Positions 31,961 to 57,488 of a stretch of 64,000 nt of DNA are shown piece by piece. The translations under genes were made by a program, and so were the position numbers. Source of the stretch: Spirochaetia bacterium (GTDB lineage Bacteria; Spirochaetota; Spirochaetia; UBA9216); assembly GCA_963677925.2 (NCBI GenBank), contig CAXXYH010000003.1, forward strand, positions 1,216,001 through 1,280,000. Reading direction: 5' to 3'. The notes under the pieces were generated by a model that worked only from the letters and a program-made list of their open reading frames with translations, was not told where the DNA came from and did no database searches. Each line of letters begins with the position of its first letter. Positions within the stretch are counted from its first letter, which is position 1.

Positions 31961-33556
31961 CTAATTATCCTGAATAATGATGTCCCCATCGGTAAAATAT
32001 GCAATTGAATTTTTACCTGAATTTTTTACCTTGTACATTGCTGTATCAGCTTCATTGAGTATCCGATCAAGATTTTCATGATTACCGCCTTCAACAAGGC
32101 TTACACCGATACTTGCTCCAATATTTATCTCATGTCCTTTGATTATGAGTTTCTCATCTATTGCAGTTAGAATTTTTTTTATTACGATATCACACTCTTT
32201 TTCACCGGACACACGGGGAAGAAGCACTATAAATTCATCGCCTCCATACCGTCCTACCGTATCAGAACTGCGAAGGACCGACCTCATTTTATGCCCGATA
32301 TTCTGAAGAAGCAGATCACCTACATCATGGCCAAACTGATCATTGACATTCTTGAATCCGTCAAGATCAATGAAGCAGACGGCAATTTTATAATGATATC
32401 GGTCAGCAAGCTCCAGCTGCCTTGTAATTCTGTCGAAAATCAGATTTCGATTCGGCAAATCTGTCAGGTTGTCATAGAGGGCGGCATGTTCCATTGATTT
32501 ACGGTATTTATTCCGCTGTATTATTATCCTGGATATAAGCAGAGTCCCGACAATATCAAACAATAAAATAATCAGAGCAAGAATGGTATACCGGTATTGA
32601 AAATCTTGGGGTCCCATTCCGAATTCCTCTGCTCTTATAAAGTGAATAAGAAACCAGGAATTTTCTGAGTTATCAATAAAATCAAGCTCCTCATAGGGGT
32701 TTATCTTTAAAGCTGAAACCAGAACCCTATTTTTATAAACCTGATAAAAATCATTATTCTGCATAGACTCCCAGACTTGAGGACATTCAAGGCTGAAAGA
32801 AACTGCCTCCCGATCTGGGAACATGAACCCCCATTCTTTTTCAGGATCATTACGGTAAAGCCAGTCGCCGTTTTCATTAGCCAGAAAAAAACTTCCCGGA
32901 TTATTCAGGGTCAGGTTTTCAAAAATATCAATCAAATTATGCCCCAGAAAATTCAGTACAACAGCGCCCTTCAGTTCACCGTTATGATAGACAGGACTTC
33001 CTATCCGAATCATTGGCTTTAAAGGTTTTTCAATCCTTCCGTTCTCTATATTCAAATCAAACAGTGAGATGTAAACCTGGCCTTCATGAAGTTTAACTGT
33101 CTCTGTAAAATAATACCTGCTATATTTATCCTGCAGCTGTTCTTCTGAAACAAGTACAGGCTTTCCATCAACCAGATTAACACGAACAATTTCCATTCCG
33201 GTTTCATCAATATATCGAACCTGATCAAAGACTCTCTTATTTTCGCTGAAATTAAGCAGATCCTGCTGCAGTTTATTTTTTTCGAGACCTGTTTCAATCA
33301 GGCTGTGCAGTGATGATAAAACAGTCAGAAATTTCACATCGTAGACAAGTTCCTTATAATAATCTGAAACAATTTCTGACTGAGCCTGAAGCAGCCGTTC
33401 AGAATCACGACCTTGCGTATTTATATGTTCTGATCTATGAGAGAGGACAGAGATAGTATATATACCGAAACTTAATACTATTACTGCTGAAAGTGTTTTG
33501 GCGACGATACTTCCTGACGCTAAAGCTTCTTTTAAAATCTTTTTATATTTATGCAT
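31961..33556 (-). CDS. Cache-sensor diguanylate cyclase
   Basis: Periplasmic Cache (DQVRYID, LQDK..RYYF, DLNIE); RYGGDEF. Confidence 0.92.
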   Translation of the reverse strand: MHKYKKILKEALASGSIVAKTLSAVIVLSFGIYTISVLSHRSEHINTQGRDSERLLQAQSEIVSDYYKELVYDVKFLTVLSSLHSLIETGLEKNKLQQDLLNFSENKRVFDQVRYIDETGMEIVRVNLVDGKPVLVSEEQLQDKYSRYYFTETVKLHEGQVYISLFDLNIENGRIEKPLKPMIRIGSPVYHNGELKGAVVLNFLGHNLIDIFENLTLNNPGSFFLANENGDWLYRNDPEKEWGFMFPDREAVSFSLECPQVWESMQNNDFYQVYKNRVLVSALKINPYEELDFIDNSENSWFLIHFIRAEEFGMGPQDFQYRYTILALIILLFDIVGTLLISRIIIQRNKYRKSMEHAALYDNLTDLPNRNLIFDRITRQLELADRYHYKIAVCFIDLDGFKNVNDQFGHDVGDLLLQNIGHKMRSVLRSSDTVGRYGGDEFIVLLPRVSGEKECDIVIKKILTAIDEKLIIKGHEINIGASIGVSLVEGGNHENLDRILNEADTAMYKVKNSGKNSIAYFTDGDIIIQDN

Positions 33557-33619
33557 TTCATTCTAATGATATAGATTTATCCGTATATTTGCAAATTACA
33601 GTCTTATCGTTAACCTATG

Positions 33620-33654
33620 AAAAAGGCTGTCCGGAGATTACTCACGGACAGCCT
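33620..33654 (-). terminator. Terminator of the decarboxylase operon
   Basis: AGGCTGTCCG/CGGACAGCCT stem plus U-tract on the minus strand. Confidence 0.8.
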
Positions 33655-33674
33655 GAATTGAAACCGTTTTTAAA

Positions 33675-34844
33675 CTAATTAAGCGACAACAGAACACCCG
33701 CAGCAATTGCAGAGCCTATAACTCCGGCTACGTTGGGGCCCATTGCGTTCATAAGCAGGAAGTTGCCCGGATCTTCTTTCTGGCCGACCTTCTGTACTAC
33801 CCGCGCAGCCATCGGTACAGCAGATACTCCTGCGGCTCCGATCATCGGATTGATCTTTCCGCCGCTTATCTTGCTCATCAGCTTTCCAAGCATAACTCCG
33901 CCGCCGGTTCCTACTCCGAATGCTATACATCCGAGTACTATAATGAATATCGTCTCAAATGTAAGGAAGTGGTCGGCTGACATCTTTGAACCTACTGATA
34001 TTCCAAGGAATATCGTTACTATGTTGATAAGCTCGTTCTGGGCTGTCTTTGAAAGCCTGTCTACAACTCCGCATTCCTTGAACAGGTTTCCAAGCATAAG
34101 CATTCCGATAAGCGGTGCTGATGCCGGAATAAGCAGGGCTGTAACTATTGTTGTGATTATCGGGAAAAGAATCTTGGTCCGTTTTGAAACAGGCTTCGGA
34201 TCCTCCATCCTGATAAGTCTTTCCTTCTTGGTTGTAAGAGCCTTGATAATAGGCGGCTGTATAATCGGTACAAGCGCCATATACGTATAGGCTGCTACTG
34301 CAATAGGTCCAAGCAGATGCGGTGCAAGCTTAGATGTGAGATATATAGCTGTAGGACCGTCAGCCCCTCCGATTATTGCGATGGAAGAGGCCTCTGCAAA
34401 GTTGAAGCCCAGATCATGCGCAGCAAGAAAGGGGATTGCTCCAAGAGCCTTGGCTCCAAGCAGGGTTATAAATATACCAAGCTGGGCAGCTGCTCCCAGA
34501 AGAAAGGTCTGCGGCTTGCCCAGAAGCGGTCCGAAGTCCGTCATCGCTCCGATTCCCATGAAGATAATCGGCGGGAACAGTCCAAGCTGAACACCCTGAT
34601 AAAAGTAATATATAAGTCCGCCGGCCTGGTCTCCGATTGGTCCTTCCAAAAGCCCTGTAAGCGGAAGGTTTACCAGTATTGCTCCGAATCCTATCGGGAT
34701 AAGCAGCAGCGGCTCATAACCCTTTGCTATTGCAAGGTAAACAAGCAGACAGCCGATTGCAATCATTACCAGGTTCTGCCAGGTGATTGCCGTGAAGGCG
34801 GTGCTGCTTAGAAATCTTAATATTAGATCTACGAAATTCACCAA
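33675..34844 (-). CDS. Na+-translocating decarboxylase beta subunit (OadB/MmdB/MadB family)
   Basis: [29 protein letters not shown] and [12 protein letters not shown]. Confidence 0.95.
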
Positions 34845-34853
34845 ATCCCTCCG

Positions 34854-35330
34854 TTAGCCGATGTCTACAAGCGGCTGTCCTTCGGTTACGTTTGTACCCG
34901 GAGTTACATGGATGGCGTTTACTGTACCGGCGTTGCTTGCAAATACTTCAATGTCCATCTTCATTGCTTCCATTATCAGAAGAAGATCTCCCTTGGCTAC
35001 GCTTGCGCCCTGGGCTACCTTGATTTCCTTGATTGTTCCTGTTATTGCAGCCTTCTCGGTTCCGGCTCCGGCTGCTACAGGGGCGGCGGCTGGTGCCGGC
35101 GCGGCGGCTGCGGGAGAGGGTGCTACAGCTGCCGGTGCAGGCGCTGCCGGTGCAGCAGGAGCTGCAGGCGCAGCGGGCGCTGCTACAGGAGCTGCTGTTG
35201 CTCCTGCAGGGGTTGCAAGGCTTACAAGGTAACTATCGCCTTCATGCTCAATTGTAAGGACATTTCCGTTTCTTGTTACGTTTATGTCGTAAAGGGTTCC
35301 TTCATATTCAAACTTAATATTCTTGCTCAT
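34854..35330 (-). CDS. Biotin carboxyl carrier subunit (MmdC/MadF-like)
   Basis: Ala/Pro linker and EAMKM biotinylation motif. Confidence 0.93.
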   Translation of the reverse strand: MSKNIKFEYEGTLYDINVTRNGNVLTIEHEGDSYLVSLATPAGATAAPVAAPAAPAAPAAPAAPAPAAVAPSPAAAAPAPAAAPVAAGAGTEKAAITGTIKEIKVAQGASVAKGDLLLIMEAMKMDIEVFASNAGTVNAIHVTPGTNVTEGQPLVDIG

Positions 35331-35335
35331 AACTC

Positions 35336-35722
35336 TTATACTCCTGGTGCTTTTCTTGTGATTTTATTGTTTGCGACCCACGGGTCATACTTTGCTGCTC
35401 CCGCTGAACTCCATCCTGAAGCCTTTGGGGCATTCTGCTCATCTTCCTCAGCTGCCAGAAACGCTGATACCGCAGCCGAAAGCCATTTCGCGTTATCGGC
35501 CATTGTAGCAGTTGCTGCTGCAACTATTACTGGCAGGGGCAGGCCGCCGCTCTTCTTTGCTGAAGATGTCCCGGCAGATTTCGGCGCTTTGCTTTTGGCT
35601 GTATCACCGTCTGCAAATTTCTTTATCAGAACCATCAGCAGACTCAGAAGGACCAACAGTGTAAACACTATCAGTATTCCAAGTATTGATGTCATAACAC
35701 TGTAAATAAATTCTTCCTGCAT
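35336..35722 (-). CDS. OadG/MmdD-like membrane anchor subunit
   Basis: N-terminal TM GILIVFTLLVLL, AAVSAF and a late W..AG motif; operon position. Confidence 0.8.
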   Translation of the reverse strand: MQEEFIYSVMTSILGILIVFTLLVLLSLLMVLIKKFADGDTAKSKAPKSAGTSSAKKSGGLPLPVIVAAATATMADNAKWLSAAVSAFLAAEEDEQNAPKASGWSSAGAAKYDPWVANNKITRKAPGV

Positions 35723-35737
35723 AAAACTCTCCGCCTC

Positions 35738-37288
35738 CTACAGTGGTATATTGCCGTGTTTCTTGGCAGGTCTGTCTTCACGCTTTTTGATGTTGATTTC
35801 AAGCGCTCTGATGAGTTCTGCACGGGTGTATTCGGGGTCGATTATGTCATCTACAAGACCTAGGCCTGCGGCTACGTAGGGGTTCATGAACTCTGTCTGG
35901 AACTCTGCTATCTTTTCCTGTCTCTTTGCTTCAGGATCCGATGCTGAGTTGATGTCCTTTCTGAATATGATGTTTGCTGCGCCCTCTGCTCCCATTACTG
36001 CTATTTCTGCTGTCGGGTATGCAAGGACTCTGTCATATCCAAGAGACTTGGATGACATTGCTATCATTGAACCGCCGTAGGACTTTCTCATAATCAGTGA
36101 AATCTTGGGCACTGTCGCCTCTGCTATTGCGTAGAGGATCTTTGCTCCGTGTCTGATGATTCCGCCGTGCTCCTGGGCAACGCCGGGAAGGTAGCCGGGG
36201 ACATCAACAAGTGTGATTACCGGAATATTGAAAGCATCACAGAAGCGGATGAACCTTGCTCCCTTATCTGATGAGTTGATATCAAGTGAGGCAGCCATGA
36301 ACTTGGGCTGGTTTGCAAAGATACCTACAGTGCGGCCGTTGAGTTTTGCAAAACCTACTACTACGCTTTTTGCGAAGTCTTCCTGTACTTCAAGAAATGA
36401 ACCTGCGTCAAAGGCGCTTCCGATTATGTCGCGTACATCGTAGGGCTTTCTTGCCTCTTCGGGGATGATCGACATGATTTCGGGTGTGGTTCTTTCAAGT
36501 GAATCTGTACAGGCACTTACCGGCGGCTGCTCTGTGTTGTTTGAAGGCAGGTAGTCCATAAGTCTTCTGATGAAATCAAAACATTCCTGCTCGGATGAAA
36601 AACGGAAGTGGGCGACTCCGCTTTTTGCACAGTGAGCTGATGCTCCGCCGAGGTCTTCGTGGCTGATTACCTCACCGGTTACTGTCTTTATTACATCCGG
36701 ACCGGTGATGTACATGTGACTTGAACCGTCTACCATGAATATGAAGTCGGTGATGGCCGGTGAGTAAACTGCACCTCCGGCACAGGGACCGAGTATTACT
36801 GAAAACTGGGGGATAACTCCTGATGAAAGGGTGTTATTCCTGAAAATTTTGGCGTATCCGTTGAGTGAGAGTATTCCCTCCTGGATTCTTGCTCCGCCTG
36901 AATCGTTGACCTGGATAAACGGTGAACCGTTTTTTAGTGCAAGGCTCTGGGCCTCTGCAATCTTTTCGGCATGCATTTCTCCAAGTGAACCGCCGAGAAC
37001 GGTAAAATCCTGGGCTGACAGGAATACCTGCTTGCCGTTCATCTTGCCTGTTCCGGTTACGACTCCGTCGCCGGCAAACTTGTTTTTATCCATGCCGAAC
37101 TGACTGGTGCGGGTCTGGATGTATGCCTGGCTTTCAACGAAACTTCCCTCATCCAGAAGTCCGGTGATCCTTTCTCTGGCGGTAAATTTCCCTTTATCAT
37201 GCTGGGCTTTGATTCTGGCGTCGCCGCCGCCCTTCTGCATTTTTGCTCTGAAGTCTTTAAACTCCTGAAGCCGCTCATTGTTATTCAT
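35738..37288 (-). CDS. Acyl-CoA carboxyltransferase (MmdA/PccB-type alpha subunit)
   Basis: QDFTVLGGSLG, DSGGARIQEG, GPCAGGAVYSPA and KKHGNIPL. Confidence 0.95.
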   Translation of the reverse strand: MNNNERLQEFKDFRAKMQKGGGDARIKAQHDKGKFTARERITGLLDEGSFVESQAYIQTRTSQFGMDKNKFAGDGVVTGTGKMNGKQVFLSAQDFTVLGGSLGEMHAEKIAEAQSLALKNGSPFIQVNDSGGARIQEGILSLNGYAKIFRNNTLSSGVIPQFSVILGPCAGGAVYSPAITDFIFMVDGSSHMYITGPDVIKTVTGEVISHEDLGGASAHCAKSGVAHFRFSSEQECFDFIRRLMDYLPSNNTEQPPVSACTDSLERTTPEIMSIIPEEARKPYDVRDIIGSAFDAGSFLEVQEDFAKSVVVGFAKLNGRTVGIFANQPKFMAASLDINSSDKGARFIRFCDAFNIPVITLVDVPGYLPGVAQEHGGIIRHGAKILYAIAEATVPKISLIMRKSYGGSMIAMSSKSLGYDRVLAYPTAEIAVMGAEGAANIIFRKDINSASDPEAKRQEKIAEFQTEFMNPYVAAGLGLVDDIIDPEYTRAELIRALEINIKKREDRPAKKHGNIPL

Positions 37289-37349
37289 TCTAAGCTCCTG
37301 AATTTCCCAAAAAATTGTGAAAGAATGTAATTTAATTCTTAATACTCAA

Positions 37350-37377
37350 ATTATCCGTAATATAGATTACGGATAAT
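37350..37377. terminator. Hairpin between madM and the carboxyltransferase gene
   Basis: ATTATCCGTAAT-ATAG-ATTACGGATAAT perfect 12-bp stem; weak U-tract. Confidence 0.55.
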
Positions 37378-37404
37378 CAGATTTCCATTTATATACTAAA
37401 CTTA

Positions 37405-38166
37405 CTAGAAAATAGCGTTAACTATCAGATACCCTACTGAAGGACAAAGAAGTGTTCCAAGTCCTGTATAGAAAGTTGCAGTCATTGCACCGTAGGGAAC
37501 AAGCTTGATATCGGTAGCCGCAAGTCCGCCTGCAACACCGCTGGTTGTTCCGATAATTCCGCCGTATACCATTGCTGTAGTCGGGTTATCAAGACCGATC
37601 TTCTTGGCAATGAGCGGTGTCATAATCATTGTAAGAACAGACTTAACAACACCTGCTGCAACAGACAGGGCAACAACCGAAGAACTGACGCCCAGGGCAT
37701 CACCTGTAACAGGACCTACAATGAAGGTAACTGTACCTGCACCGATTGTTGTGAGTTCTTTAGGATCAACAAAGCCGAGTATACGGGCAATTATGACTCC
37801 TACTACGAATGAGAATATTACTCCTATAAAGAGCGATACAACGCCTGCCAATCCTGCTTTTTTAAGATTCTCCATCTTAACACCATATGCTGTTGATACA
37901 ATGGTGTAGTCTCTGAGGGCACTTCCTCCAAGTATGAGAAAACCTGCAAAAAGAGGCAGATCAGCAAGACCTTTTTTTCCGCCGGTGAATTTACCGGCAA
38001 CATATGCAAGAATAAGGGCAAGTATGATTGCAAAAGCAGATCCCATCTTTCCCTGTTTGATCATTTTTGCTACATAGTAAGCAAGAAGCATCGCAAGAGC
38101 GACAAAACCGAAAGCGAGGACAAGGTGATCACGTCCCATGATACTGTTCATTATTTTTGCAATCAT
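37405..38166 (-). CDS. madM: Malonate transporter subunit MadM
   Basis: GGKKGLAD, LRD..IVSTAYG, GTTSGVAGGLAATD and YGAMTATFYTGLG. Confidence 0.92.
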   Translation of the reverse strand: MIAKIMNSIMGRDHLVLAFGFVALAMLLAYYVAKMIKQGKMGSAFAIILALILAYVAGKFTGGKKGLADLPLFAGFLILGGSALRDYTIVSTAYGVKMENLKKAGLAGVVSLFIGVIFSFVVGVIIARILGFVDPKELTTIGAGTVTFIVGPVTGDALGVSSSVVALSVAAGVVKSVLTMIMTPLIAKKIGLDNPTTAMVYGGIIGTTSGVAGGLAATDIKLVPYGAMTATFYTGLGTLLCPSVGYLIVNAIF

Positions 38167-38540
38167 ACTTCTTCTCCTTTATCTTTACCAAGTTTGGCTA
38201 CTAATGGTACAAGAAACAGTGAAGCTATAGTTGCAATGCCTCCGGCCAGAAATGCAACCGCACCGCCGTCAACTGCAGCTACAACATTCTGGGATGCTGC
38301 CATAGCAACAACAACCGGAATGTAGATAGAACTCAGAAAAAGTATTCCGTTTTCAGTTTTTGGACTGAAACCGCCCTTTTTTGATTTTTGAACTCTTGCA
38401 GTAACAATAACCAGAAGAAGCATTGCTATACCTACACCGCCGACATTACCCCCGATGCCGATTACCGCACCAAGAATTCTGCCGATGAAATTTCCGACAA
38501 AGTAACAGGCTGCTACTATTCCAAGGCCGTATATTTCCAT
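38163..38540 (-). CDS. madL: Malonate transporter subunit MadL
   Basis: IYG, NVGGVGIAML and YIPVVVAMAASQNV; overlaps the madM start. Confidence 0.92.
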   Translation of the reverse strand: MEIYGLGIVAACYFVGNFIGRILGAVIGIGGNVGGVGIAMLLLVIVTARVQKSKKGGFSPKTENGILFLSSIYIPVVVAMAASQNVVAAVDGGAVAFLAGGIATIASLFLVPLVAKLGKDKGEEV

Positions 38541-38579
38541 ATCCTTTTCTCCTTAAACTTAAATTTGGTTTTAATAGTT

Positions 38580-39803
38580 TTATTTTTTGTCGAAGACAAC
38601 TCCGCTGTTCAGCAGTTCTTCAACTTTTTCTTTTGAATATCCGAGTTCATTCTGCAGATATTCAATTGTGTGCTCCCCAAGTCCGGGAGCCGGTGTTCTG
38701 ACTGTACCGGGAGTTTCCGTCATTTTAAACGGAGATCCGGCCATAGTTACTTTACCAACTCCGGGCTGTTCAACATCAACTATCATTTCGCGGTAAAGCA
38801 GGTTCGGGTCTTTTACAACCTTATCAATTGTGTTCAATGGTGAATACGGCAGGCCGTTTTCATCAAGAAGCTTGATCCATTCTTCGGATGTCTTCTTTTT
38901 CATTTCAACATCCAGAATTCTGACCAGTTCATCTCGGTTCTGTGTTCTGAGAGGATTAGTTTTGAAAAGTTCATGATCAGTCAGATCTTCTCTTTCAATA
39001 AGTGTACAGAATTTCTTCCAGAGAGAATCATTACCGATAGGTGTTATAACCCAGCTGCCGTCACTTGTTTCAAATGCCTGAAACGGAGTTATGGTCGGGT
39101 GAGCACTTCCGAGAGGTACGGGAATTTCACCTTTGGCAGTGTATCTGACAATTGCATTCTCAAGAATGTACACAAGACCGTCTACCATGGAAATATCTAT
39201 ATGCTGTCCTTCGCCGGTTCGGTTTTTATGCTGCAGAGCTGCAAGAATGCCGATCGCACCCTGATGCCCTGCAACTACATCACCTACAGACGAGCCTACA
39301 CGTACCGGAGCTCCGCCGAGGGGTCCTGTGATACTCATCAAACCGCTGAATCCCTGTGCAACCATGTCGTATGCCGGACGGGTTGCATACTCGGGAAGAG
39401 CATCATGTCCGAATCCGCAGATTGAGCAATAAATAATTCCGGGATTTATTTTTTTTAATTCTTCAAATGAGAAACCAAGTTTTCTCATGGTTGTCGGACG
39501 GTAGTTTTCAACTACGATATCCGCATCCTTAATCATGTCCGTCAGCAGAGCCTTACCTTCATCTTTTTTAAGATCAACACAAATACTCTTTTTATTTCTG
39601 TTAATACTGATGAAGTAGCCGCTCTGCTTACCGTCGCCTTCCTGTTCATCGATAAAGGGTCCGAAAGCCCTTGAATCATCACCGATAGGGGGTTCAACTT
39701 TTACAACATCAGCCCCCATATCTGCCAGAATCATCGTGCAGAACGGAGCAGCAAGTACATGACTAAGATCGACTATTTTAATTCCTTCCAATGCCTTTTT
39801 CAT
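38580..39803 (-). CDS. Family III CoA-transferase (CaiB/BaiF)
   Basis: AAPFCTMILADMGADVVKVE, NRNKKS, ENYRP, catalytic Asp (SVGD) and APGLGEHT. Confidence 0.93.
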   Translation of the reverse strand: MKKALEGIKIVDLSHVLAAPFCTMILADMGADVVKVEPPIGDDSRAFGPFIDEQEGDGKQSGYFISINRNKKSICVDLKKDEGKALLTDMIKDADIVVENYRPTTMRKLGFSFEELKKINPGIIYCSICGFGHDALPEYATRPAYDMVAQGFSGLMSITGPLGGAPVRVGSSVGDVVAGHQGAIGILAALQHKNRTGEGQHIDISMVDGLVYILENAIVRYTAKGEIPVPLGSAHPTITPFQAFETSDGSWVITPIGNDSLWKKFCTLIEREDLTDHELFKTNPLRTQNRDELVRILDVEMKKKTSEEWIKLLDENGLPYSPLNTIDKVVKDPNLLYREMIVDVEQPGVGKVTMAGSPFKMTETPGTVRTPAPGLGEHTIEYLQNELGYSKEKVEELLNSGVVFDKK

Positions 39804-39924
39804 AAAGGCCTCCTGTGATTTTTGTTTTCACAAAATCACTTGATCACTAATAAATTGAATTAAACACACTCTTTCACAATGTTATTTTCTTGAAACCTCC
39901 AGGGGCTCTCTTTTTTTTATGAGC

Positions 39925-39959
39925 AAAAAAAAAGAGAAGTATTCTGACACTACTTCTCT
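39925..39959 (-). terminator. Attenuator terminator in the leader of the CoA-transferase/mad operon
   Basis: Minus strand AGAGAAGUA-GUGUCAGAA-UACUUCUCU followed by a long U-run. Confidence 0.85.
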
Positions 39960-40030
39960 AATACACGCGTTAATAAAATTTCACTACAGGGACTGAACAC
40001 TAATACACACTAAATTTTTTCAGTCCTGTT
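39945..40030 (-). promoter_or_regulatory. UAG/UAGUG repeat cluster, probable HutP-binding antitermination site
   Basis: Plus-strand CACTA at 39948, 39982, 39998 and 40008; CTAATACAC at 39958 and 40000; overlaps the terminator 5' arm. Confidence 0.65.
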
Positions 40031-40046
40031 TATACACAAATAAATA

Positions 40047-40469
40047 TTATTTTAAATGCATAACCCCAAGCGCACACCGCTCATGGTTTGTTATTGGATA
40101 GAAGGCGGAATCACCGTAAATCGCAACAGCAACCCATTCCTCATTGGTAACAATGCCCACCTTAAGTTTCAGGCTGGCCTCTGCCGGAACACTGCTGATA
40201 ACACCGTTAAGCGCTTCAAGGGCAGCATGAAGAACAGCATGAACCTGCGTTCCGGTTTTTTTGATCAATCCATTCTGAAGTGAACAACCGACGATTGATT
40301 TTACAAAACTCTTCTTGATATCGGAGGTCAGACCGGTAATAAAAGTCACCGCAAGTTTTTCCTTTCCGATAGTGTTATTGACTTCGGCCTTAATCTGGCG
40401 CTCTTCTTCTTCATCAGACATAGCAGCAAGAAGTGCCATTTTTCCAATACGATCCGTATTCAACTTCAT
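40047..40469 (-). CDS. HutP-family RNA-binding antiterminator
   Basis: RIGKMALL start, HAVLHAALEALNG and WVAVAIYG...HE..LGVMHL resemble B. subtilis HutP, including the His metal ligands. Confidence 0.85.
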   Translation of the reverse strand: MKLNTDRIGKMALLAAMSDEEEERQIKAEVNNTIGKEKLAVTFITGLTSDIKKSFVKSIVGCSLQNGLIKKTGTQVHAVLHAALEALNGVISSVPAEASLKLKVGIVTNEEWVAVAIYGDSAFYPITNHERCALGVMHLK

Positions 40470-40554
40470 GTTTAGTCATACTACACTCGGAAATGCACAA
40501 TTGTCAATAAAAAAACTAAAGCTATCGGGGAATTTTTATCTATATATACAGAGA

Positions 40555-42765
40555 TCAACCATCAAAATTTCTATATTCACGGCTGAACCTGCCGGGTATT
40601 GCAATACAGAACGATGTTCCCTGCTTAGGTTTTGAATCAACAGTAATACTGCCGTCCAGGGCATCAACAATATTTTTCACAATGGCAAGACCAAGGCCCA
40701 TACCGCGGTGTATTTTTGTATAAATATTTTCAAGCTGCTGAAAGGGCTCAAAAATCAGAGGTAAGTCTTCCTTTTTAATTCCTGGTCCTTCATCTGAAAT
40801 TTTAAGGATGAGTTCATCCGCCAATTCAGTAATAGTACATATGATATCACCCTTATCAGAATATTTTATTGCGTTAGTAATAAGATTGTTAACAACCTGG
40901 GCAATACGGGTCTCATCTCCGTAAAAATATCCCGACTCATATTTTTTAAAAACTGACAGTTCAAGGTCCTTCATTTCCATAGAATCTCTGAAAATTTCGG
41001 AGGCAAGCATTGCCAGATTATCAATTCTGAAAAACTGCTTATTAATGGAAATTTTCCCGATACTGAACTGAGTGAAGTTCAGAAGATCCTCTATTATTGT
41101 CTTCAGGTTTTCAGAGGAAACGAGGGCAAGTTTATACCACTCACGTTCTTTATCGGTGAAAGAAGCTCCGGAGATCAGGGTGAGCATTCCGAAAACCCCG
41201 TTAAGAGGTGTCCGGAGTTCATGGCTGATATTTGCAAGAAAATCATTTTTTACTCTAAGAGCTGTTTCCGCCTTAATTCTTGCATGCTCCATCTGTTCGG
41301 ATATTTTTATTTTTTCAGTTACATCGTGTATGATCGCATATAGATATTCATGATTGCCTGTGCTAAGCCGTCCGCTGAATATCTCGACATGACGTGTGTC
41401 TTTCTTTGCAAGCTTTATTCTCATAGTCCTGCCGGATAATTCATCAAACTTGAAAGAACCTTCTTCAACATTCTCTTCATCGGCAAGCAGATTGTAAAGC
41501 GACAGATTTTTCAGAGCTTTTTCAGGATATCCAAGATAATCCATTGCAGCCTGATTCAAATCGATAATTCTGCTTGTAACCGGTTCGAACAGAATGATGA
41601 TTGATGTATTGTCATAAAAGAGACTTCTGTATTTCATTTCACTCTGACGAAGAGCTGACTCAGCCTTTTTCCTGATATTAATATTTATGAGTGAAAATAG
41701 AAGTAAAACTGCCATTATACTGAAAATGCTTACCGAACTTAGCACCAGAACCTTATTTTCCCTGAGAAAACTGTAAGGTCTGTTTATGATTTCAGAGTCG
41801 TTTGGCAGTTTTCTCAAACTGACTCCGAATCGCTTAAGTTCCTGAAAATCAAATATATAATGATTTTCAGCATCGCTCCGTATTGGCATTGAAGCCGAAG
41901 ATTCGCCGTTCAGGATTTTAAGGGCAGTTTCTGCGGCACTGATGGCCTGCTCATAATGACTAATCACCCTGCCTCCGAAAACACCGTCGCCAAAACCATG
42001 ATACCAGAGATGAAAGAGCGGGATTTTCAAATTCTCATAGATTATATTGAGGCTCTCATTGAAGAGCATGTTATTACCTTCACTATCAGTATAAGCAGAC
42101 AGGAGCAGTATACTTGTATCTCTTCCCAGACCGGAAAGAACCGCTGCAAATTCCTGCCATGAATAATCTTTAAGAGATATCGTTCTGAACTTATATGAAG
42201 GATACTCGCCCTGAAGCTCATTGAAAGCTCTTTCATCAGCAGTTCCGCTGGTAGTTGCATCTGAAATTGCTGCAATGGTTTCAGTTGAAGGGAAAAGAGA
42301 AATCATCAGCTCAATAGTATCCTTCATTGAGACGGCTTCAATGAACCCTGTAACCAGCGGATCATCATTATAACTCAGCGCCTGAGCGATATCATTAACC
42401 CCGAAAAACACTATCGGAACATCTTCAAAAAACTCATCCCGCATACTCATGCAGAAAGCAAGCGCATTATCATCAGCGGTGATTACCAAATCATATTTTG
42501 GAACATGCTGAAACTTATAGGTAATAAAATCTTTCCTGAGATTGATGACCTGTCCTGTATTAAAACGCTTTGAATCCAGGAATTCCATATCCAGAAGTAC
42601 ATGCTGCTTATCCAGTACAGAACGCAATCCGTCAATCTGATGATTGAAGGTTGGAAATGAGGGATTATATGAACTAATAAATAGGATTCTTTTAAAATGA
42701 TCATGAGCAGAGGCCGGCAGACATAACGTCAGCATAATCAGAATCAGGACACACTTCTTAAGCAT
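40555..42765 (-). CDS. Sensor histidine kinase (periplasmic ABC-binding-like domain, PAS)
   Basis: ISHELRTPLN, NLITNAIKY, DEGPG and GLGL boxes; start uncertain. Confidence 0.92.
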   Translation of the reverse strand: MLKKCVLILIMLTLCLPASAHDHFKRILFISSYNPSFPTFNHQIDGLRSVLDKQHVLLDMEFLDSKRFNTGQVINLRKDFITYKFQHVPKYDLVITADDNALAFCMSMRDEFFEDVPIVFFGVNDIAQALSYNDDPLVTGFIEAVSMKDTIELMISLFPSTETIAAISDATTSGTADERAFNELQGEYPSYKFRTISLKDYSWQEFAAVLSGLGRDTSILLLSAYTDSEGNNMLFNESLNIIYENLKIPLFHLWYHGFGDGVFGGRVISHYEQAISAAETALKILNGESSASMPIRSDAENHYIFDFQELKRFGVSLRKLPNDSEIINRPYSFLRENKVLVLSSVSIFSIMAVLLLFSLININIRKKAESALRQSEMKYRSLFYDNTSIIILFEPVTSRIIDLNQAAMDYLGYPEKALKNLSLYNLLADEENVEEGSFKFDELSGRTMRIKLAKKDTRHVEIFSGRLSTGNHEYLYAIIHDVTEKIKISEQMEHARIKAETALRVKNDFLANISHELRTPLNGVFGMLTLISGASFTDKEREWYKLALVSSENLKTIIEDLLNFTQFSIGKISINKQFFRIDNLAMLASEIFRDSMEMKDLELSVFKKYESGYFYGDETRIAQVVNNLITNAIKYSDKGDIICTITELADELILKISDEGPGIKKEDLPLIFEPFQQLENIYTKIHRGMGLGLAIVKNIVDALDGSITVDSKPKQGTSFCIAIPGRFSREYRNFDG

Positions 42766-42863
42766 ATTTAAATTATATGAAAGATGAAAGCGCAATGCAA
42801 TTATTATTTCATTTCTTCCGGCGACCCTTGAATTCCATTAAAAATAATCTGGTTTAAATTAAT

Positions 42864-44339
42864 ATGCCCGGAGACTATTTTTCTAATGATCCAGTTCAGC
42901 GAACTGCCGCGGAGAGTTTCGATCTGAAATTTCTTTATCCGTATCAAAGGCTTGTAATTGCAAACATTCTTGAAACCGCAGGCTTTTATGGAGCTGAGAA
43001 GAATAATGAAGAAAATGAGAAGACAGATTATCGCTCCAGGCAGATAGTAATTCTCCCGACCGGTGCAGGTAAAAGTCTCTGTTTCATGCTTCCCTCTCTC
43101 CTGCTGTCAGGCCCCACACTTATAATCTTCCCTCTTCTATCACTTATAGCCGATCAAAAACGCCGCTGTGATGATGCCGGAATCAGTTCCGCAGCCCTCA
43201 CCGGAGGACAAAGCAGGAAGGAAAGGGATGAAATATTCAGAAGTATTGTAAACGGCAGCCTGCGTATAATACTGTCTAATCCGGAAACAGCTCTATCTCC
43301 GCCGGTATTCAGGCGTTTGTCGGAGGCCGGAATATCTCATTTGGTTTTTGATGAGGTGCATACGGTATCTGAGTGGGGAGACAGTTTCCGCCCCGTATAC
43401 CTGGAGTGCCGGAAGCTGATCGCTGAAATGAATATTCCTGTGGTAACAGCATTCACCGCTACGGCATCTGAAACCGTGTTGTCCAGGATTATCGAGATAC
43501 TTTTTCCAGGCGAATCACCTCATATAATTTCAGCAAATCCTGACCGTCCTAATATTTCATACAGCGTTCATCCCTGCCTGTCTAAAATCCATGAACTTGA
43601 AATACAGATAAAAACAGCCTGCAGACCTATCCTGGTCTTCTGCGGAAAGAGAAAGACTGCAGAAAGAACAGCTGTGCTTCTGAGGCTGCGGCTCCGTGAA
43701 AAGCAGGTATTCTTCTACCACGCAGGCCTTACTAAAGCGGAAAAAAAGAAGATTGAAAACTGGTACTTCAATTCCGCCGACGGGATTCTGCTGGCAACGA
43801 CTGCATACGGAATGGGTGTTGATAAGCCGAATATTCGAACTGTAATACACTATGATCTTTCACCATCTGTTGAGGCATATCTGCAGGAATCCGGACGTGC
43901 GGGACGTGATCGTGAACCCGCTGCAGCAATCCTGCTTTTGAAAAAAACAGATTATCTGCGCCATACCGTCATTTCACGCGATTCTTTACCGGAAAGGTTT
44001 CAAAAGCTGCTGGGATTTGCACTTAACACCGCCAAATGCAGGCGTGAATCACTGATGGAGCTGCTCGGAGCGGAACCTGAAGCCTGTTTCGGATGTGATG
44101 TTTGCAGCGGCAGCGCTGTTACGGCCGATAAATGGGAACAGAGAATTATCAGTTTTATAAGAAGAAATCCATTGTGCTATACACCTGCAGGTGCCGCAGA
44201 AAAGCTCAACAGCCTTTCGAATGAAATTGAGAAGGATGATGCGGAGGAGATGATAGAAGACCTGCTGCTAACAGGAAAACTTTCTTTATCAAAGAAAGGG
44301 TTTCTTAAAAAAAAGAGAAGGACCGAAGCCCTTCTCTAA
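42864..44339 (+). CDS. recQ: RecQ family ATP-dependent DNA helicase (short form, no HRDC)
   Basis: PTGAGKS, DEVH, TATA, QESGRAGRD and Zn-binding CRR..C..CD.C. Confidence 0.9.
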   Translation: MPGDYFSNDPVQRTAAESFDLKFLYPYQRLVIANILETAGFYGAEKNNEENEKTDYRSRQIVILPTGAGKSLCFMLPSLLLSGPTLIIFPLLSLIADQKRRCDDAGISSAALTGGQSRKERDEIFRSIVNGSLRIILSNPETALSPPVFRRLSEAGISHLVFDEVHTVSEWGDSFRPVYLECRKLIAEMNIPVVTAFTATASETVLSRIIEILFPGESPHIISANPDRPNISYSVHPCLSKIHELEIQIKTACRPILVFCGKRKTAERTAVLLRLRLREKQVFFYHAGLTKAEKKKIENWYFNSADGILLATTAYGMGVDKPNIRTVIHYDLSPSVEAYLQESGRAGRDREPAAAILLLKKTDYLRHTVISRDSLPERFQKLLGFALNTAKCRRESLMELLGAEPEACFGCDVCSGSAVTADKWEQRIISFIRRNPLCYTPAGAAEKLNSLSNEIEKDDAEEMIEDLLLTGKLSLSKKGFLKKKRRTEALL

Positions 44340-56384: not shown

Positions 56385-56975
56385 CTAATCATCCAGCGGT
56401 TCCAGCTCTTCAATCAGCGCATCACCGTTATCAATTTCATTCATAAACCACTCTTTCATCTCACGGAAGCGGATTTCACGCAGCTGGTCATTTTTTGATG
56501 AAAGGCTGCATCCAAGCAGTTCATCAAAGTATTTTACAAGACCCGGATGCGGTCCTGCCTCGGGCCGTATCCGCCTAAGCTCGTCCACGGCCTTCTGCTC
56601 ATCATTATGGATAAGATACAGGTAGCCAAGGGCTATAGCCGCCGATCTGGAGACTCCACGCCAGCAGTGAATTACGTAGCCGCTTGCGCTGTCCTTTGTT
56701 TTATTGAAATATCTGATTGCCCTTCTTGCATCACGCTTCTGAGGTATCCGCTTTGGCCGCATAGTACCCAGATGTTCTTTTTTCAGAACATCAAAGAACT
56801 CAAGTCTGAGTATTGATTTGAAAGTCTTTTTGAATATCTCAGGTACTATAGTGTCCACACTATGCCGGAAAAATTTTCCCGGATTACCTATTGAGACAAG
56901 ATGGGTTTCAAGAGGCTCTCCCTTTTCGATCAGCTCAATAAGCTCTGTCTGTCCGTAAATCTGTATCTTCATCAT
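56385..56975 (-). CDS. PTP/dual-specificity phosphatase-like protein
   Basis: HCWRGVSRS (CX5R) motif, LEFFD loop and RPEAGPH. Confidence 0.85.
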   Translation of the reverse strand: MMKIQIYGQTELIELIEKGEPLETHLVSIGNPGKFFRHSVDTIVPEIFKKTFKSILRLEFFDVLKKEHLGTMRPKRIPQKRDARRAIRYFNKTKDSASGYVIHCWRGVSRSAAIALGYLYLIHNDEQKAVDELRRIRPEAGPHPGLVKYFDELLGCSLSSKNDQLREIRFREMKEWFMNEIDNGDALIEELEPLDD

Positions 56976-57418: not shown

Positions 57419-57461
57419 TAGTGTTACAATTACACATATAGATAGTGTTTATTCAACACTA
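57419..57461. promoter_or_regulatory. Tandem GT-N7-AC palindromes (NrtR-like operators)
   Basis: TAGTGT-TACAATT-ACACAT (57419-57437) and TAGTGT-TTATTCA-ACACTA (57443-57461). Confidence 0.6.
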
Positions 57462-57488
57462 ATATTTAGGTAATTAAGGAAACAGCTG

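What the first reader, a model, noticed from the sequence alone, without database searches (positions are those of the whole stretch)
39804..40469. HutP-family antiterminator apparently repurposed to control a dicarboxylate operon, with its RNA target visible
Seen: the hutP-like gene is followed by a 243-nt leader. It carries four clustered UAGUG repeats, two GUGUAUUAG copies, a hairpin (39986-40029) with two UAGs in or at the edge of its loop, and an intrinsic terminator (39925-39959) whose 5' arm and loop contain UAGs. Known: B. subtilis HutP binds NAG/UAG triplets in the hut leader when activated by L-histidine and Mg2+ and destabilises the terminator. The His metal ligands look conserved here. 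Inference: this HutP regulates the CoA-transferase/madLM operon and may sense malonate or a related acid rather than histidine, a possibly new ligand-RNA-protein switch. No histidine-utilisation genes are adjacent.
Basis: partly seen in the sequence, partly recalled or inferred. Interest (0 to 1): 0.8.

Follow-up and report, generated by a model that had tools for sequence, protein, structure and literature searches.

The report
HutP-like antiterminator of a malonate operon
A relative of the Bacillus histidine-sensing RNA-binding protein HutP sits in front of a transcription stop signal and a malonate-breakdown operon, and comparison with other genomes suggests that this branch of the family switches on malonate genes through a different RNA repeat and probably senses malonate, not histidine.

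Summary
Observation confirmed; interpretation largely upheld with one correction. All genes lie on the minus strand. They are a HutP-family gene (40047-40469), a 243-nt leader, then CoA-transferase III, madL, madM and a four-subunit Na+-pumping biotin decarboxylase.

The leader holds a loop-displaying hairpin, an intrinsic terminator (9-bp stem, U9) and five UAGUG. UAG alone is not enriched (6 vs 4.8 expected). The signal is (A/U)GUG, that is G-N-G cores, at an 8-nt period. Canonical hutH-linked leaders show NAG at a 7-nt period.

Three units cover the terminator's 5' arm. A second three-unit array overlaps a hairpin beside the Shine-Dalgarno sequence. These two arrays are the two best matches in the 5-Mb genome to a motif built from other loci.

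Of 51 related genomic loci, 41 link this HutP branch to malonate genes of two non-homologous routes. The genome has no urocanase or histidase.

Best reading: ligand-activated HutP hexamers sequester the terminator's 5' arm. The ligand, probably Mg-malonate, is inferred only.

Not described in the papers searched. This scan noted the same idea earlier on other DNA (e1-3858554).

The parts
40478..40507 (-). Promoter-like site TTGACA-18-TAGTAT, ending 8 nt before the hutP ATG (a near-leaderless hutP mRNA is implied)
   Evidence: 10 of 12 matches. It is the only promoter-like site on the minus strand between the kinase gene and the CoA-transferase start. L006 has a similar arrangement.
40047..40469 (-). 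HutP-family RNA-binding protein, 140 aa
   Evidence: Pfam PF09021 E 2.8e-31. AF2 model pLDDT 90; the top 10 PDB matches are all HutP, TM 0.69-0.78. NCBIfam HutP equivalog scores 39.9 bits against a cut-off of 155.
39987..40028 (-). Hairpin 1 (stem 40028-40019 / 39997-39987) showing site I, two UAGUG units (40012-40008, 40002-39998), in its loop
   Evidence: Equivalent hairpins with different stem sequences and GUG-type repeats in the loop occur in L056, L060 and L007; none is evident in L006.
39979..39986 (-). Single UAGUGAAA unit just 3' of hairpin 1
39945..39968 (-). Site II: three 8-nt units GCGUGUAU-UAGAGAAG-UAGUGUCA. Units 2 and 3 cover the terminator's 5' arm and the start of its loop.
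   Evidence: Second-best three-unit match in the 5.04-Mb genome to a motif built from six other loci (19.2 bits). Conserved in all 5 aligned leaders.
39925..39959 (-). Intrinsic terminator: 9-bp stem AGAGAAGUA/UACUUCUCU, 9-nt loop, U9
   Evidence: dG -9.8 to -11.5. A hairpin plus U-run is found in 14 of 16 CoA-transferase-linked leaders. One stem pair covaries: G-C in the window, A-U in L056, U-A in L007.
39864..39879 (-). Site III: two units UUGUGAAA-GAGUGUGU
   Evidence: (C/U)GUGAAA(G/U)AGUGAA is conserved in L007, L056 and L060.
39826..39849 (-). Site IV: three units UAGUGAUC-AAGUGAUU-UUGUGAAA
   Evidence: Best three-unit match in the whole genome (23.9 bits). It is 1 of only 2 exact 3xGTG period-8 sites in the genome. 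It is the most conserved block of the leader alignment.
39815..39839 (-). Hairpin GUGAUUUUG/CAAAAAUCAC ending 1 nt before the Shine-Dalgarno sequence; its 5' arm lies inside site IV
   Evidence: alifold consensus in 5 of 5 leaders. The arms are conserved without covariation, so a DNA operator cannot be excluded.
39809..39814 (-). Shine-Dalgarno sequence AGGAGG of the CoA-transferase gene
38580..39803 (-). Family III CoA-transferase (proposed malonate:acyl-CoA CoA-transferase)
   Evidence: PF02515 E 3.7e-127. Below the cut-off of every named NCBIfam equivalog.
37405..38540 (-). madL (38163-38540) and madM (37405-38166), the Na+/malonate symporter
   Evidence: NCBIfam equivalogs passed: MadL 127.8 vs 113.45, MadM 307.7 vs 236.3. 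Function per Schaffitzel 1998, as cited in PMC8085960 (passages).
33675..37288 (-). Na+-translocating biotin decarboxylase: carboxyltransferase (35738-37288), small subunit (35336-35722), biotin carrier (34854-35330), membrane beta subunit (33675-34844)
   Evidence: The mmdA subfamily scores 780 bits, below its 998.8 cut-off; Na_pump_decarbB scores 520 against 190.6. No mutase or epimerase follows; the next gene is a Cache-GGDEF protein.

Best explanation
This is a HutP-type protein-RNA antitermination switch that has been re-assigned from histidine utilisation to malonate catabolism.

Transcription starts at the promoter in front of hutP. Without inducer it stops at the intrinsic terminator 39959-39925, so only hutP is made.

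When activated by its ligand, the HutP-family oligomer binds short single-stranded units of consensus U-A-G-U-G spaced every 8 nt. The ligand is most likely malonate chelated to the Mg2+ held by the conserved His triad; this is inferred. The protein is presumably a hexamer with two three-fold RNA-binding faces, as in B. subtilis.

Site I lies in the loop of hairpin 1. Site II covers the 5' arm of the terminator. Occupying site II keeps that arm single-stranded, so the terminator cannot form, and RNA polymerase reads on into the operon: CoA-transferase, madLM and the Na+-pumping (malonyl-CoA) decarboxylase.

A second pair of arrays (sites III and IV) overlaps a hairpin abutting the Shine-Dalgarno sequence. 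It probably adds control of translation or of mRNA structure; the direction of that effect is unknown.

Shown here: the family and fold of the protein, the anatomy and conservation of terminator and repeats, the period and its difference from hut leaders, the gene linkage, and the lack of hut genes.

Inferred: RNA binding, antitermination, hexamer formation and the ligand.
For: (1) The protein is HutP-like. Pfam E 2.8e-31. The AF2 model (pLDDT 90) matches only HutP structures at E <= 5.1e-7. The three His, plus E81 and E139 in B. subtilis numbering, are conserved in all groups.

(2) Layout: a promoter-like site only upstream of hutP, then hutP, terminator and operon.

(3) Repeat statistics in the leader: TAGTG 5 vs 0.54, GTG 13 vs 5.24, three-unit G.G chains 2 vs 0.01 (each 0 of 2000 shuffles). 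Strand bias is 5:0 for TAGTG and 13:1 for GTG.

(4) Period 8. In 8 Spirochaetota-like leaders GTG pairs at lag 8 number 27 vs 0.5 expected (z 37), and G.G pairs 42 vs 4.1. In 7 Bacillota CoA-transferase leaders G.G at lag 8 is 26 vs 1.9. As a control, 16 hutH-linked leaders give AG at lag 7 as 54 vs 17.9 (z 9.5) and nothing at lag 8. This fits the published U498/U505/U512 spacing (PMC2425495, passages).

(5) A hairpin plus U-run follows hutP in 14 of 16 CoA-transferase-linked leaders. In 12 of those 14 a three-unit period-8 chain sits on or just before the 5' arm.

(6) A motif built from 43 units of six other loci ranks window sites IV and II first and second in the 5.04-Mb genome.

(7) Linkage. 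Of 51 genomic loci, 14 have the CoA-transferase directly downstream. Another 27 have the Malonomonas-type mad genes, for example Rhodobacter capsulatus CitG-MadB-biotin ligase-MadA-ACP and Neobacillus MadB-HutP-MadA-ACP-MadC-MadD-MdcG. Sporomusa malonica, a malonate fermenter (PMC8085960, passages), has the CoA-transferase form.

(8) hutH-linked HutPs form a separate group on a long branch.

(9) No urocanase or histidase was found in the 99.63%-complete genome.
Against: No experiment and no RNA data were available.

UAG itself is not enriched.

Two CoA-transferase-linked leaders (L015, L010) show no terminator.

The 13 alphaproteobacterial mad leaders show only a weak period-8 signal (z 2.4). 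The mad-linked Bacillota leaders mostly have two-unit chains.

Ten of the 51 loci are not malonate-linked: oxamate-type allFGH, V-ATPase and others.

Malonate-linked proteins are not one clade on the quick tree, and the deep forks are unresolved.

The leaders compared are partly orthologous. The z-scores and the genome ranking therefore mix descent with constraint, and I picked the motif units by eye.

An array next to the ribosome-binding site could repress rather than activate.

E81, which I recall as touching the ligand in B. subtilis, is conserved, so a histidine-like ligand is not excluded by sequence alone.
Confidence: 0.7

Rival explanations
1. The switch is real, but the protein still senses L-histidine or another amino acid. 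Only the target operon changed.
For: The His triad and E81 are conserved. All named sources call these proteins hut regulators.
Against: The genome has no urocanase or histidase. The same branch sits with two non-homologous malonate routes whose only shared specific metabolite is malonate. The pocket region differs from the hutH-linked group: Y69 is deleted, R88 is not conserved, the R98/T99 region is replaced by S-L-K-L-K, and 4-aa and 8-aa loops are deleted. The roles of these residues are my recollection.
Confidence: 0.1
2. The terminator merely ends the hutP transcript. The operon has its own promoter in the distal leader, controlled by a DNA-binding factor at the palindrome 39839-39815. 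HutP acts, if at all, only on translation through sites III and IV, possibly as a repressor.
For: The hairpin beside the Shine-Dalgarno sequence has conserved arms of the form TTTTGT-N4-ACAAAA without covariation, which looks like an operator. Site IV lies close to the ribosome-binding site. L015 and L010 lack a terminator. The alphaproteobacterial loci have 450-nt gaps that could hold promoters.
Against: The scan found no promoter-like site in the leader. The repeats are strongly strand-specific and spaced 8 nt apart, unlike DNA operators. Site II overlaps the terminator arm in 12 of 14 leaders. No DNA-binding regulator gene is conserved next to these loci; the kinase upstream was found only in L005, the locus 99% identical to the window.
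Confidence: 0.12
3. The leader is a ligand-binding riboswitch or a small-RNA target, and the HutP-family gene is unrelated to it.
For: Conserved structured elements are present.
Against: There is no Rfam match in 33000-43000 at E <= 1 apart from a chance isrG hit. The conserved parts are short repeats, not a complex fold, and the whole-leader fold has z -1.25. The repeats co-occur with hutP across phyla with unrelated flanking sequence.
Confidence: 0.03

Closest known systems
Bacillus subtilis HutP and the hutP-hutH terminator (hutPHUIGM operon)
   Same: Same protein family and fold. The regulator gene comes first, then a terminator, then the catabolic genes. Short purine-rich repeats lie in two clusters, one of them on the terminator. 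The His triad is conserved (mechanism from PMC2425495 and PMC12591593, passages and sections read).
   Different: Only 21-28% identity to solved HutPs, and far below the NCBIfam equivalog cut-off. The repeat is (A/U)GUG at an 8-nt period instead of NAG at a 7-nt period. Site I is displayed in a hairpin loop. A further array lies at the ribosome-binding site. The target is malonate catabolism, and the genome has no hut genes. The pocket and two loops differ.
TRAP (trp RNA-binding attenuation protein) of Bacillus
   Same: A ligand-activated ring protein reads repeated G/UAG triplets in a leader and controls both termination and translation (recalled; compared with HutP in PMC2425495).
   Different: It is an unrelated fold (no such Pfam hit). 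TRAP promotes termination, whereas here antitermination is inferred.
Known malonate regulators MdcR, MdcY and MatR
   Same: They control malonate decarboxylase or mat operons in response to malonate (PMC5845375, passages).
   Different: These are described there as transcriptional regulators or repressors. I recall them as DNA-binding LysR and GntR types. The element here is an RNA-binding protein acting after initiation.
   Same: The same idea on other DNA: a HutP relative, terminators with GAG-rich sites, and malonate as the suspected ligand.
   Different: A different genome and the mad-type operon. It is an AI note, not independent evidence. I examined Negativicutes and Bacillota loci myself.

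Membership tests
HutP family (Pfam PF09021) | Match to the family profile above the gathering score, over the full length | tested here: met
   108.9 bits against a cut-off of 25, profile 1-128 of 128
HutP family (Pfam PF09021) | HutP fold (helices packed on a four-stranded antiparallel sheet) | tested here: met
   AF2 model with pLDDT 90 and pTM 0.86, four strands and four helices. The Foldseek top 10 are all HutP, TM 0.69-0.78, E 9e-9 to 5e-7.
HutP family (Pfam PF09021) | Three His that hold the divalent metal (His73, His77, His138 of B. subtilis; residue roles recalled, the paper is not held) | tested here: met
   The aligned His are invariant: H77, H81 and H129 in window numbering.
HutP family (Pfam PF09021) | Homohexamer with two RNA-binding faces | not tested
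   No oligomer prediction was run. Three-unit arrays in pairs fit a three-fold face.
Histidine-utilisation antiterminator HutP proper (NCBIfam NF002838 equivalog) | Score above the equivalog cut-off | tested here: not met
   39.9 bits against 155
Histidine-utilisation antiterminator HutP proper (NCBIfam NF002838 equivalog) | Linked to hutH/hutU | tested here: not met
   The downstream genes are CoA-transferase and madLM. PF01175 and PF00221 were not found in the genome. By contrast, 18 of 20 loci from 121 genomes of the class of the Neobacillus locus L040 have hutH downstream.
Histidine-utilisation antiterminator HutP proper (NCBIfam NF002838 equivalog) | RNA target of NAG triplets with about 4-nt spacers (7-nt period) in two sites at the terminator | tested here: not met
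   UAG is not enriched. The unit is (A/U)GUG at period 8. The control hut leaders give period 7.
Histidine-utilisation antiterminator HutP proper (NCBIfam NF002838 equivalog) | Activation by L-histidine plus Mg2+ | not testable with these tools
   Only indirect evidence: the pocket region differs and there is no hut pathway.
Intrinsic (Rho-independent) terminator | Stable stem-loop directly followed by a U-run | tested here: met
   9-bp stem, dG -9.8 to -11.5, U9. Conserved in 5 of 5 aligned leaders. The consensus scan missed it (the loop is 9 nt).
MadLM malonate transporter | NCBIfam equivalog cut-offs for MadL and MadM | tested here: met
   127.8 vs 113.45 and 307.7 vs 236.3

The most novel reading that the evidence does not exclude
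HutP may be a general platform for sensing small metal-chelating acids, not a one-off histidine sensor. In this branch the amino-acid-Mg2+ chelate would be replaced by a malonate-Mg2+ chelate. That would make it the first RNA-binding protein sensor of a dicarboxylate and the first post-initiation regulator of malonate catabolism. Its RNA code would be re-tuned, from NAG every 7 nt to (A/U)GUG every 8 nt, and it would use two double-site modules to control termination and translation of one operon. Sister groups next to oxamate (allFGH) and V-ATPase genes would sense yet other ligands.
Probability: 0.4. Interest if true: 0.8.

Novelty: new variant of a known kind. Interest (0 to 1): 0.7.

Why it matters
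HutP is a structural textbook case of a ligand- and metal-activated RNA-binding antiterminator. In the literature I could search it is tied only to histidine utilisation in Bacillus (2025 review PMC12591593).

A branch that controls malonate fermentation and respiration genes in Spirochaetota, Negativicutes, Bacillota, Caldisericota and Rhodobacter would have several consequences:
- It would show that the fold can be re-tuned both in ligand and in RNA code (period 8, GUG core).
- It would give malonate catabolism an RNA-level regulator beside the DNA-binding MdcR, MdcY and MatR.
- It would offer a compact, orthogonal malonate-responsive switch for synthetic biology.
- It flags the CoA-transferase, MadLM and Na+-decarboxylase cluster as the likely genes of the malonyl-CoA route of malonate fermentation.

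Cultivable carriers (Rhodobacter capsulatus, Sporomusa malonica) make this directly testable.

Tried and rejected
- Rfam scan of 33000-43000 at E <= 1: only a chance isrG hit at 17.8 bits against a gathering score of 100.
- Consensus terminator scan: none found, because its loop limit is 8 nt.
- RNA evidence: no RNA holder listed for 38500-40700. I did not lay reads, since contigs cannot show 3' ends.
- UAG as the unit: rejected, not enriched.
- Exact-pattern genome scans. 3x AG.G at period 8 gave 19 hits, none in the leader. 2x TAGTG at period 8 gave 2 hits, none in the leader. 3x GTG gave 2 hits, one in the leader.
- The third-ranked genomic motif site (contig C4) lies in no telling context.
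- Looking for B. subtilis ligand-residue roles in print: the paper is not held, and a residue-name search returned nothing relevant among the 10 papers listed, none holding the term HutP. Those roles stay recalled.
- Literature searches. HutP with malonate gave 2 irrelevant papers. HutP-like/family/homolog gave 1 review. Searches on mad-cluster regulators and on Sporomusa found no RNA-level regulator. PMC8307300 held nothing on malonate growth of Rhodobacter. The library lacks most subscription journals, and supplements were closed.
- The histidine kinase upstream (40555-42795) as partner: it was found only in L005, the locus 99% identical to the window.
- A small ORF after the conserved GGAGG at 39900-39896: no start codon at a usable distance. 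I read this by eye.
- Earlier notes for this genome: none.
Full report
**What is there.** All relevant genes lie on the minus strand.
- A sensor histidine kinase (40555-42795) is followed by a promoter-like site TTGACA-18-TAGTAT (40507-40478).
- Next comes a 140-aa gene (40047-40469). It matches Pfam HutP end to end (E 2.8e-31).
- After a 243-nt leader come a family III CoA-transferase (38580-39803), madL and madM, and a four-subunit Na+-translocating biotin decarboxylase (33675-37288).
- MadL and MadM pass NCBI's equivalog cut-offs. The carboxyltransferase is mmdA-like but below its cut-off. The CoA-transferase passes no named equivalog.
- The next gene is a Cache-GGDEF protein, and no mutase or epimerase is present. 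The operon therefore reads as malonate uptake, CoA transfer and Na+-pumping decarboxylation of malonyl-CoA. That assignment is an inference from the families.

**The protein.**
- An AlphaFold model (23-sequence alignment, pLDDT 90, pTM 0.86) matches only HutP crystal structures at the top (10 of the top 10, TM 0.69-0.78, 21-28% identity).
- Sequence similarity to solved HutPs is weak (E 4e-5). The NCBIfam HutP equivalog scores 39.9 bits against a cut-off of 155.
- The three His that align with His73, His77 and His138 of B. subtilis HutP are invariant. I recall these as the metal ligands, but the paper is not held.
- A group-wise alignment shows differences from hutH-linked HutPs. Y69 is deleted and R88 is not conserved. 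A 4-residue and an 8-residue loop are missing. The R98/T99 stretch is replaced by S-L-K-L-K. E137 becomes N, T140 becomes R and N146 becomes M. What these residues do in B. subtilis is my recollection, so I use them only as a sign that pocket and RNA surface changed.
- The family is small. From this query, 69 of 1.84 billion representative proteins reach E <= 1e-3.

**The leader.**
- Hairpin 1 (40028-40019 / 39997-39987) has two UAGUG in its loop, and a third UAGUG lies just after it.
- The terminator has a 9-bp stem, a 9-nt loop and U9 (39959-39925; dG -9.8 to -11.5).
- UAG as such is not enriched: 6 vs 4.84 expected. TAGTG (5 vs 0.54), GTG (13 vs 5.24) and three G.G cores at period 8 (2 vs 0.01) each exceed all 2000 shuffles.
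- The motifs are strand-specific: TAGTG 5:0 and GTG 13:1.
- Read in an 8-nt register, the leader holds four arrays. Site I is in the loop. Site II is GCGUGUAU-UAGAGAAG-UAGUGUCA, whose last two units are the terminator's 5' arm and the start of its loop. Site III has two units (39879-39864). Site IV is UAGUGAUC-AAGUGAUU-UUGUGAAA (39849-39826).
- Site IV overlaps the 5' arm of a hairpin that ends one base before the Shine-Dalgarno sequence.
- The whole-leader fold is not exceptional (z -1.25).

**Relatives.**
- The protein is patchy among kin. It was found in 2 of the 60 relatives' genomes searched (3 of 61 counting the window's own genome).
- A pattern scan of one genome per species returned 51 loci. 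I assigned contexts with tblastn and Pfam.
- Fourteen loci have the CoA-transferase directly downstream. They come from Spirochaetota, a Syntrophaceae MAG, Treponema, Caldisericota, and Sporomusa and other Negativicutes/Bacillota, including Sporomusa malonica.
- Twenty-seven loci sit in Malonomonas-type mad clusters. Fifteen are Alphaproteobacteria, including Rhodobacter capsulatus with CitG-MadB-biotin ligase-MadA-ACP. Eleven are Bacillota, such as Neobacillus with LysR-MadB-HutP-MadA-ACP-MadC-MadD-MdcG. One is a Spirochaetota MAG. For L054 and L055 the hutP is fragmentary and the call rests alone.
- Ten loci have no malonate gene. Six (L031-L036) are from Caldisericota, Coprothermobacterota and unclassified MAGs; the two I Pfam-scanned, L031 and L033, have AllH, FdrA-like and (L033 only) AllG oxamate genes. 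Three are Bacteroidales next to a V-type ATPase, and one is a Leptospirales tandem pair.
- Four of the 15 metagenome loci add CoA-transferase cases.
- The two malonate routes share no enzyme with each other. The common denominator is the substrate.
- S. malonica grows by malonate decarboxylation (PMC8085960, passages). I recall, but did not see, a 1994 paper on malonate degradation via malonyl-CoA in S. malonica and R. capsulatus.

**Control group and tree.**
- In 121 genomes of the class to which the Neobacillus locus L040 belongs, 21 have a PF09021 match. Of the 20 loci above the cut-off, 18 have an aromatic amino acid lyase (hutH) downstream. Five were Pfam-checked and the rest were assigned by tblastn. 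One has an ABC binding protein, and one is the Neobacillus mad locus.
- The tree is a quick IQ-TREE run with 84 rows, 141 columns and SH-aLRT support only. I left out rows under 115 aa, duplicates and fragmentary hutPs.
- The hutH-linked rows, plus one S. malonica paralogue, fall in one group (support 89) on a branch of length 2.65.
- The window's protein falls in a 31-row group (99*): 17 mad, 7 CoA-transferase, 3 V-ATPase and 4 other.
- A Bacillota malonate group has 17 rows (94), and the allFGH-type group has 14 rows (94). I labelled 12 of those 14 by similarity, not by scan.
- The forks between these groups are unresolved, and the malonate label needs several changes. I therefore claim separation from the hut group, not a single malonate clade.

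**The RNA code.**
- Pairs of G.G, AG.G and GTG in 8 Spirochaetota-like leaders pile up at lag 8: 42 vs 4.1, 18 vs 0.5 and 27 vs 0.5, with a second peak at 16. Seven Bacillota CoA-transferase leaders behave the same way (G.G 26 vs 1.9).
- The same test on 16 hutH-linked leaders recovers the known period of 7 (AG 54 vs 17.9, TAG 13 vs 1.5) and nothing at 8. This agrees with the mapped U498/U505/U512 (PMC2425495).
- Forty-three units that I read off six other loci give the profile U(0.72) A(0.68) G(0.97) U(0.86) G(0.97). Three such units at period 8 score best in the whole 5.04-Mb genome at window site IV (23.9 bits) and second best at site II (19.2). The next site scores 16.6, in no telling context.
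- A hairpin plus U-run follows hutP in 14 of 16 CoA-transferase-linked leaders. In 12 of those 14 a three-unit chain lies on or just before the 5' arm. Examples are Bacillota GAGUGAAU-GAGGGACA-GAGUGGAA and L007 GAGUGUAA-GAGAGAAU-UAGUGUAC.
- Five aligned leaders conserve exactly site II with its terminator and site IV with its hairpin. One terminator pair covaries: G-C, A-U, U-A.
- Hairpin 1 keeps its shape with unrelated stems in the window, L056/L060 and L007, but is not evident in L006.

**Caveats on the RNA code.**
- The leaders are partly orthologous, and I chose the units by eye.
- L015 and L010 have no terminator.
- The alphaproteobacterial leaders show little periodicity (z 2.4).
- The mad-linked Bacillota leaders mostly have two-unit chains.

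**Mechanism.** The best-supported reading is HutP-style antitermination by sequestering the terminator's 5' arm (site II), helped by site I on the other face of a hexamer.
- This parallels the two-site wrap described for B. subtilis (PMC2425495 and PMC12591593).
- Sites III and IV form a second two-site module at the ribosome-binding site. Binding there would melt the adjacent hairpin and might aid or hinder initiation; I cannot tell which.
- The ligand is inferred from linkage to be malonate. A bidentate Mg2+ chelate in place of the amino-acid chelate is chemically plausible but untested.

**Rivals.** These are a retained histidine ligand, an internal promoter with a DNA operator at the palindrome, and a protein-independent RNA element. 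They are given with their evidence in the Rival explanations section.

**Novelty.**
- No paper in the searched library joins HutP with malonate.
- A 2025 review lists HutP only for hutPHUIGM of Bacillus.
- The known malonate regulators found are the transcriptional regulators MdcR, MdcY and MatR.
- The library omits most subscription journals, and supplements were closed.
- This scan had already noted the same idea in a Negativicutes mad operon (e1-3858554), and an 8-nt period in another HutP-like branch (e1-1168415). Those are unchecked AI notes.
- I rate this a new variant of a known kind.

Noticed in passing
window 33675-39803 (minus strand): The cluster of CoA-transferase III, madLM and an MmdABCD-like Na+ pump, with no mutase or epimerase, looks like a gene set for malonate fermentation through free malonyl-CoA. 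It differs from the ACP-based mad/mdc systems. The same CoA-transferase follows hutP in Sporomusa malonica (L046).
   Followed up: partly
L031 6426-10786; L033 3419-11106: A sister group of these HutP-like proteins (L031-L035 and similar metagenome loci, several from Caldisericota) is followed at once by AllH, an FdrA-like CoA-ligase protein and, in L033, AllG (oxamate carbamoyltransferase). Also present are a cyclase, a molybdopterin-dehydrogenase FAD subunit and, in L033, a xanthine/uracil permease. This suggests a purine or oxamate-related ligand.
   Followed up: partly
L012-L014 (L014 6001-10753): In gut Bacteroidales, including Segatella copri, a member of the same 31-row group sits directly upstream of a V-type ATPase operon.
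   Followed up: no
L008 5992-7117; L009 6001-6927: Two loci carry tandem duplicated hutP-like genes. L009 is followed by MadB and MadA, and L008 by a sodium:solute symporter.
   Followed up: no
window 40469-40507; L006 about 5960-6003: The -10 element of the hutP promoter-like site ends 8 nt before the ATG and there is no Shine-Dalgarno sequence, so hutP may be translated from a leaderless or near-leaderless mRNA.
   Followed up: no
L015 about 5880-5960; L046/L041 just upstream of hutP: In L015 a three-unit array (UAGAGAAU-AAGUGAGU-UAGUGAUA) lies in the 5' UTR of hutP itself. In Sporomusa-type loci GAG-rich units overlap the hutP ribosome-binding site. Autoregulation is possible.
   Followed up: no
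window 39895-39901 and equivalent places in L006, L056, L060, L011: A conserved GGAGG lies 15-25 nt after the terminator, with no start codon at a usable distance. Its function is unknown.
   Followed up: partly
window 39906-39918: An A-rich stretch (A8-GAGAG) can pair with the terminator's 3' arm and U-tract to form a 13-bp alternative hairpin in the MFE fold. It is not conserved in the other leaders.
   Followed up: partly
window 56848-56863 and 57419-57465: TAGTG-containing palindromes (ATAGTGTCCACACTAT, and TAGTGTT-N5-AACACTA) lie in intergenic DNA. They look like operators of a DNA-binding factor and are unrelated to the leader repeats.
   Followed up: no
L071, L074, L075 (Sporomusa malonica genome): S. 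malonica has three PF09021 genes. One is the CoA-transferase-linked copy, one groups with hutH-linked HutPs and lies about 1.9 kb from a hutH-like gene, and one is very divergent and pairs with the ABC-importer-linked L076.
   Followed up: partly
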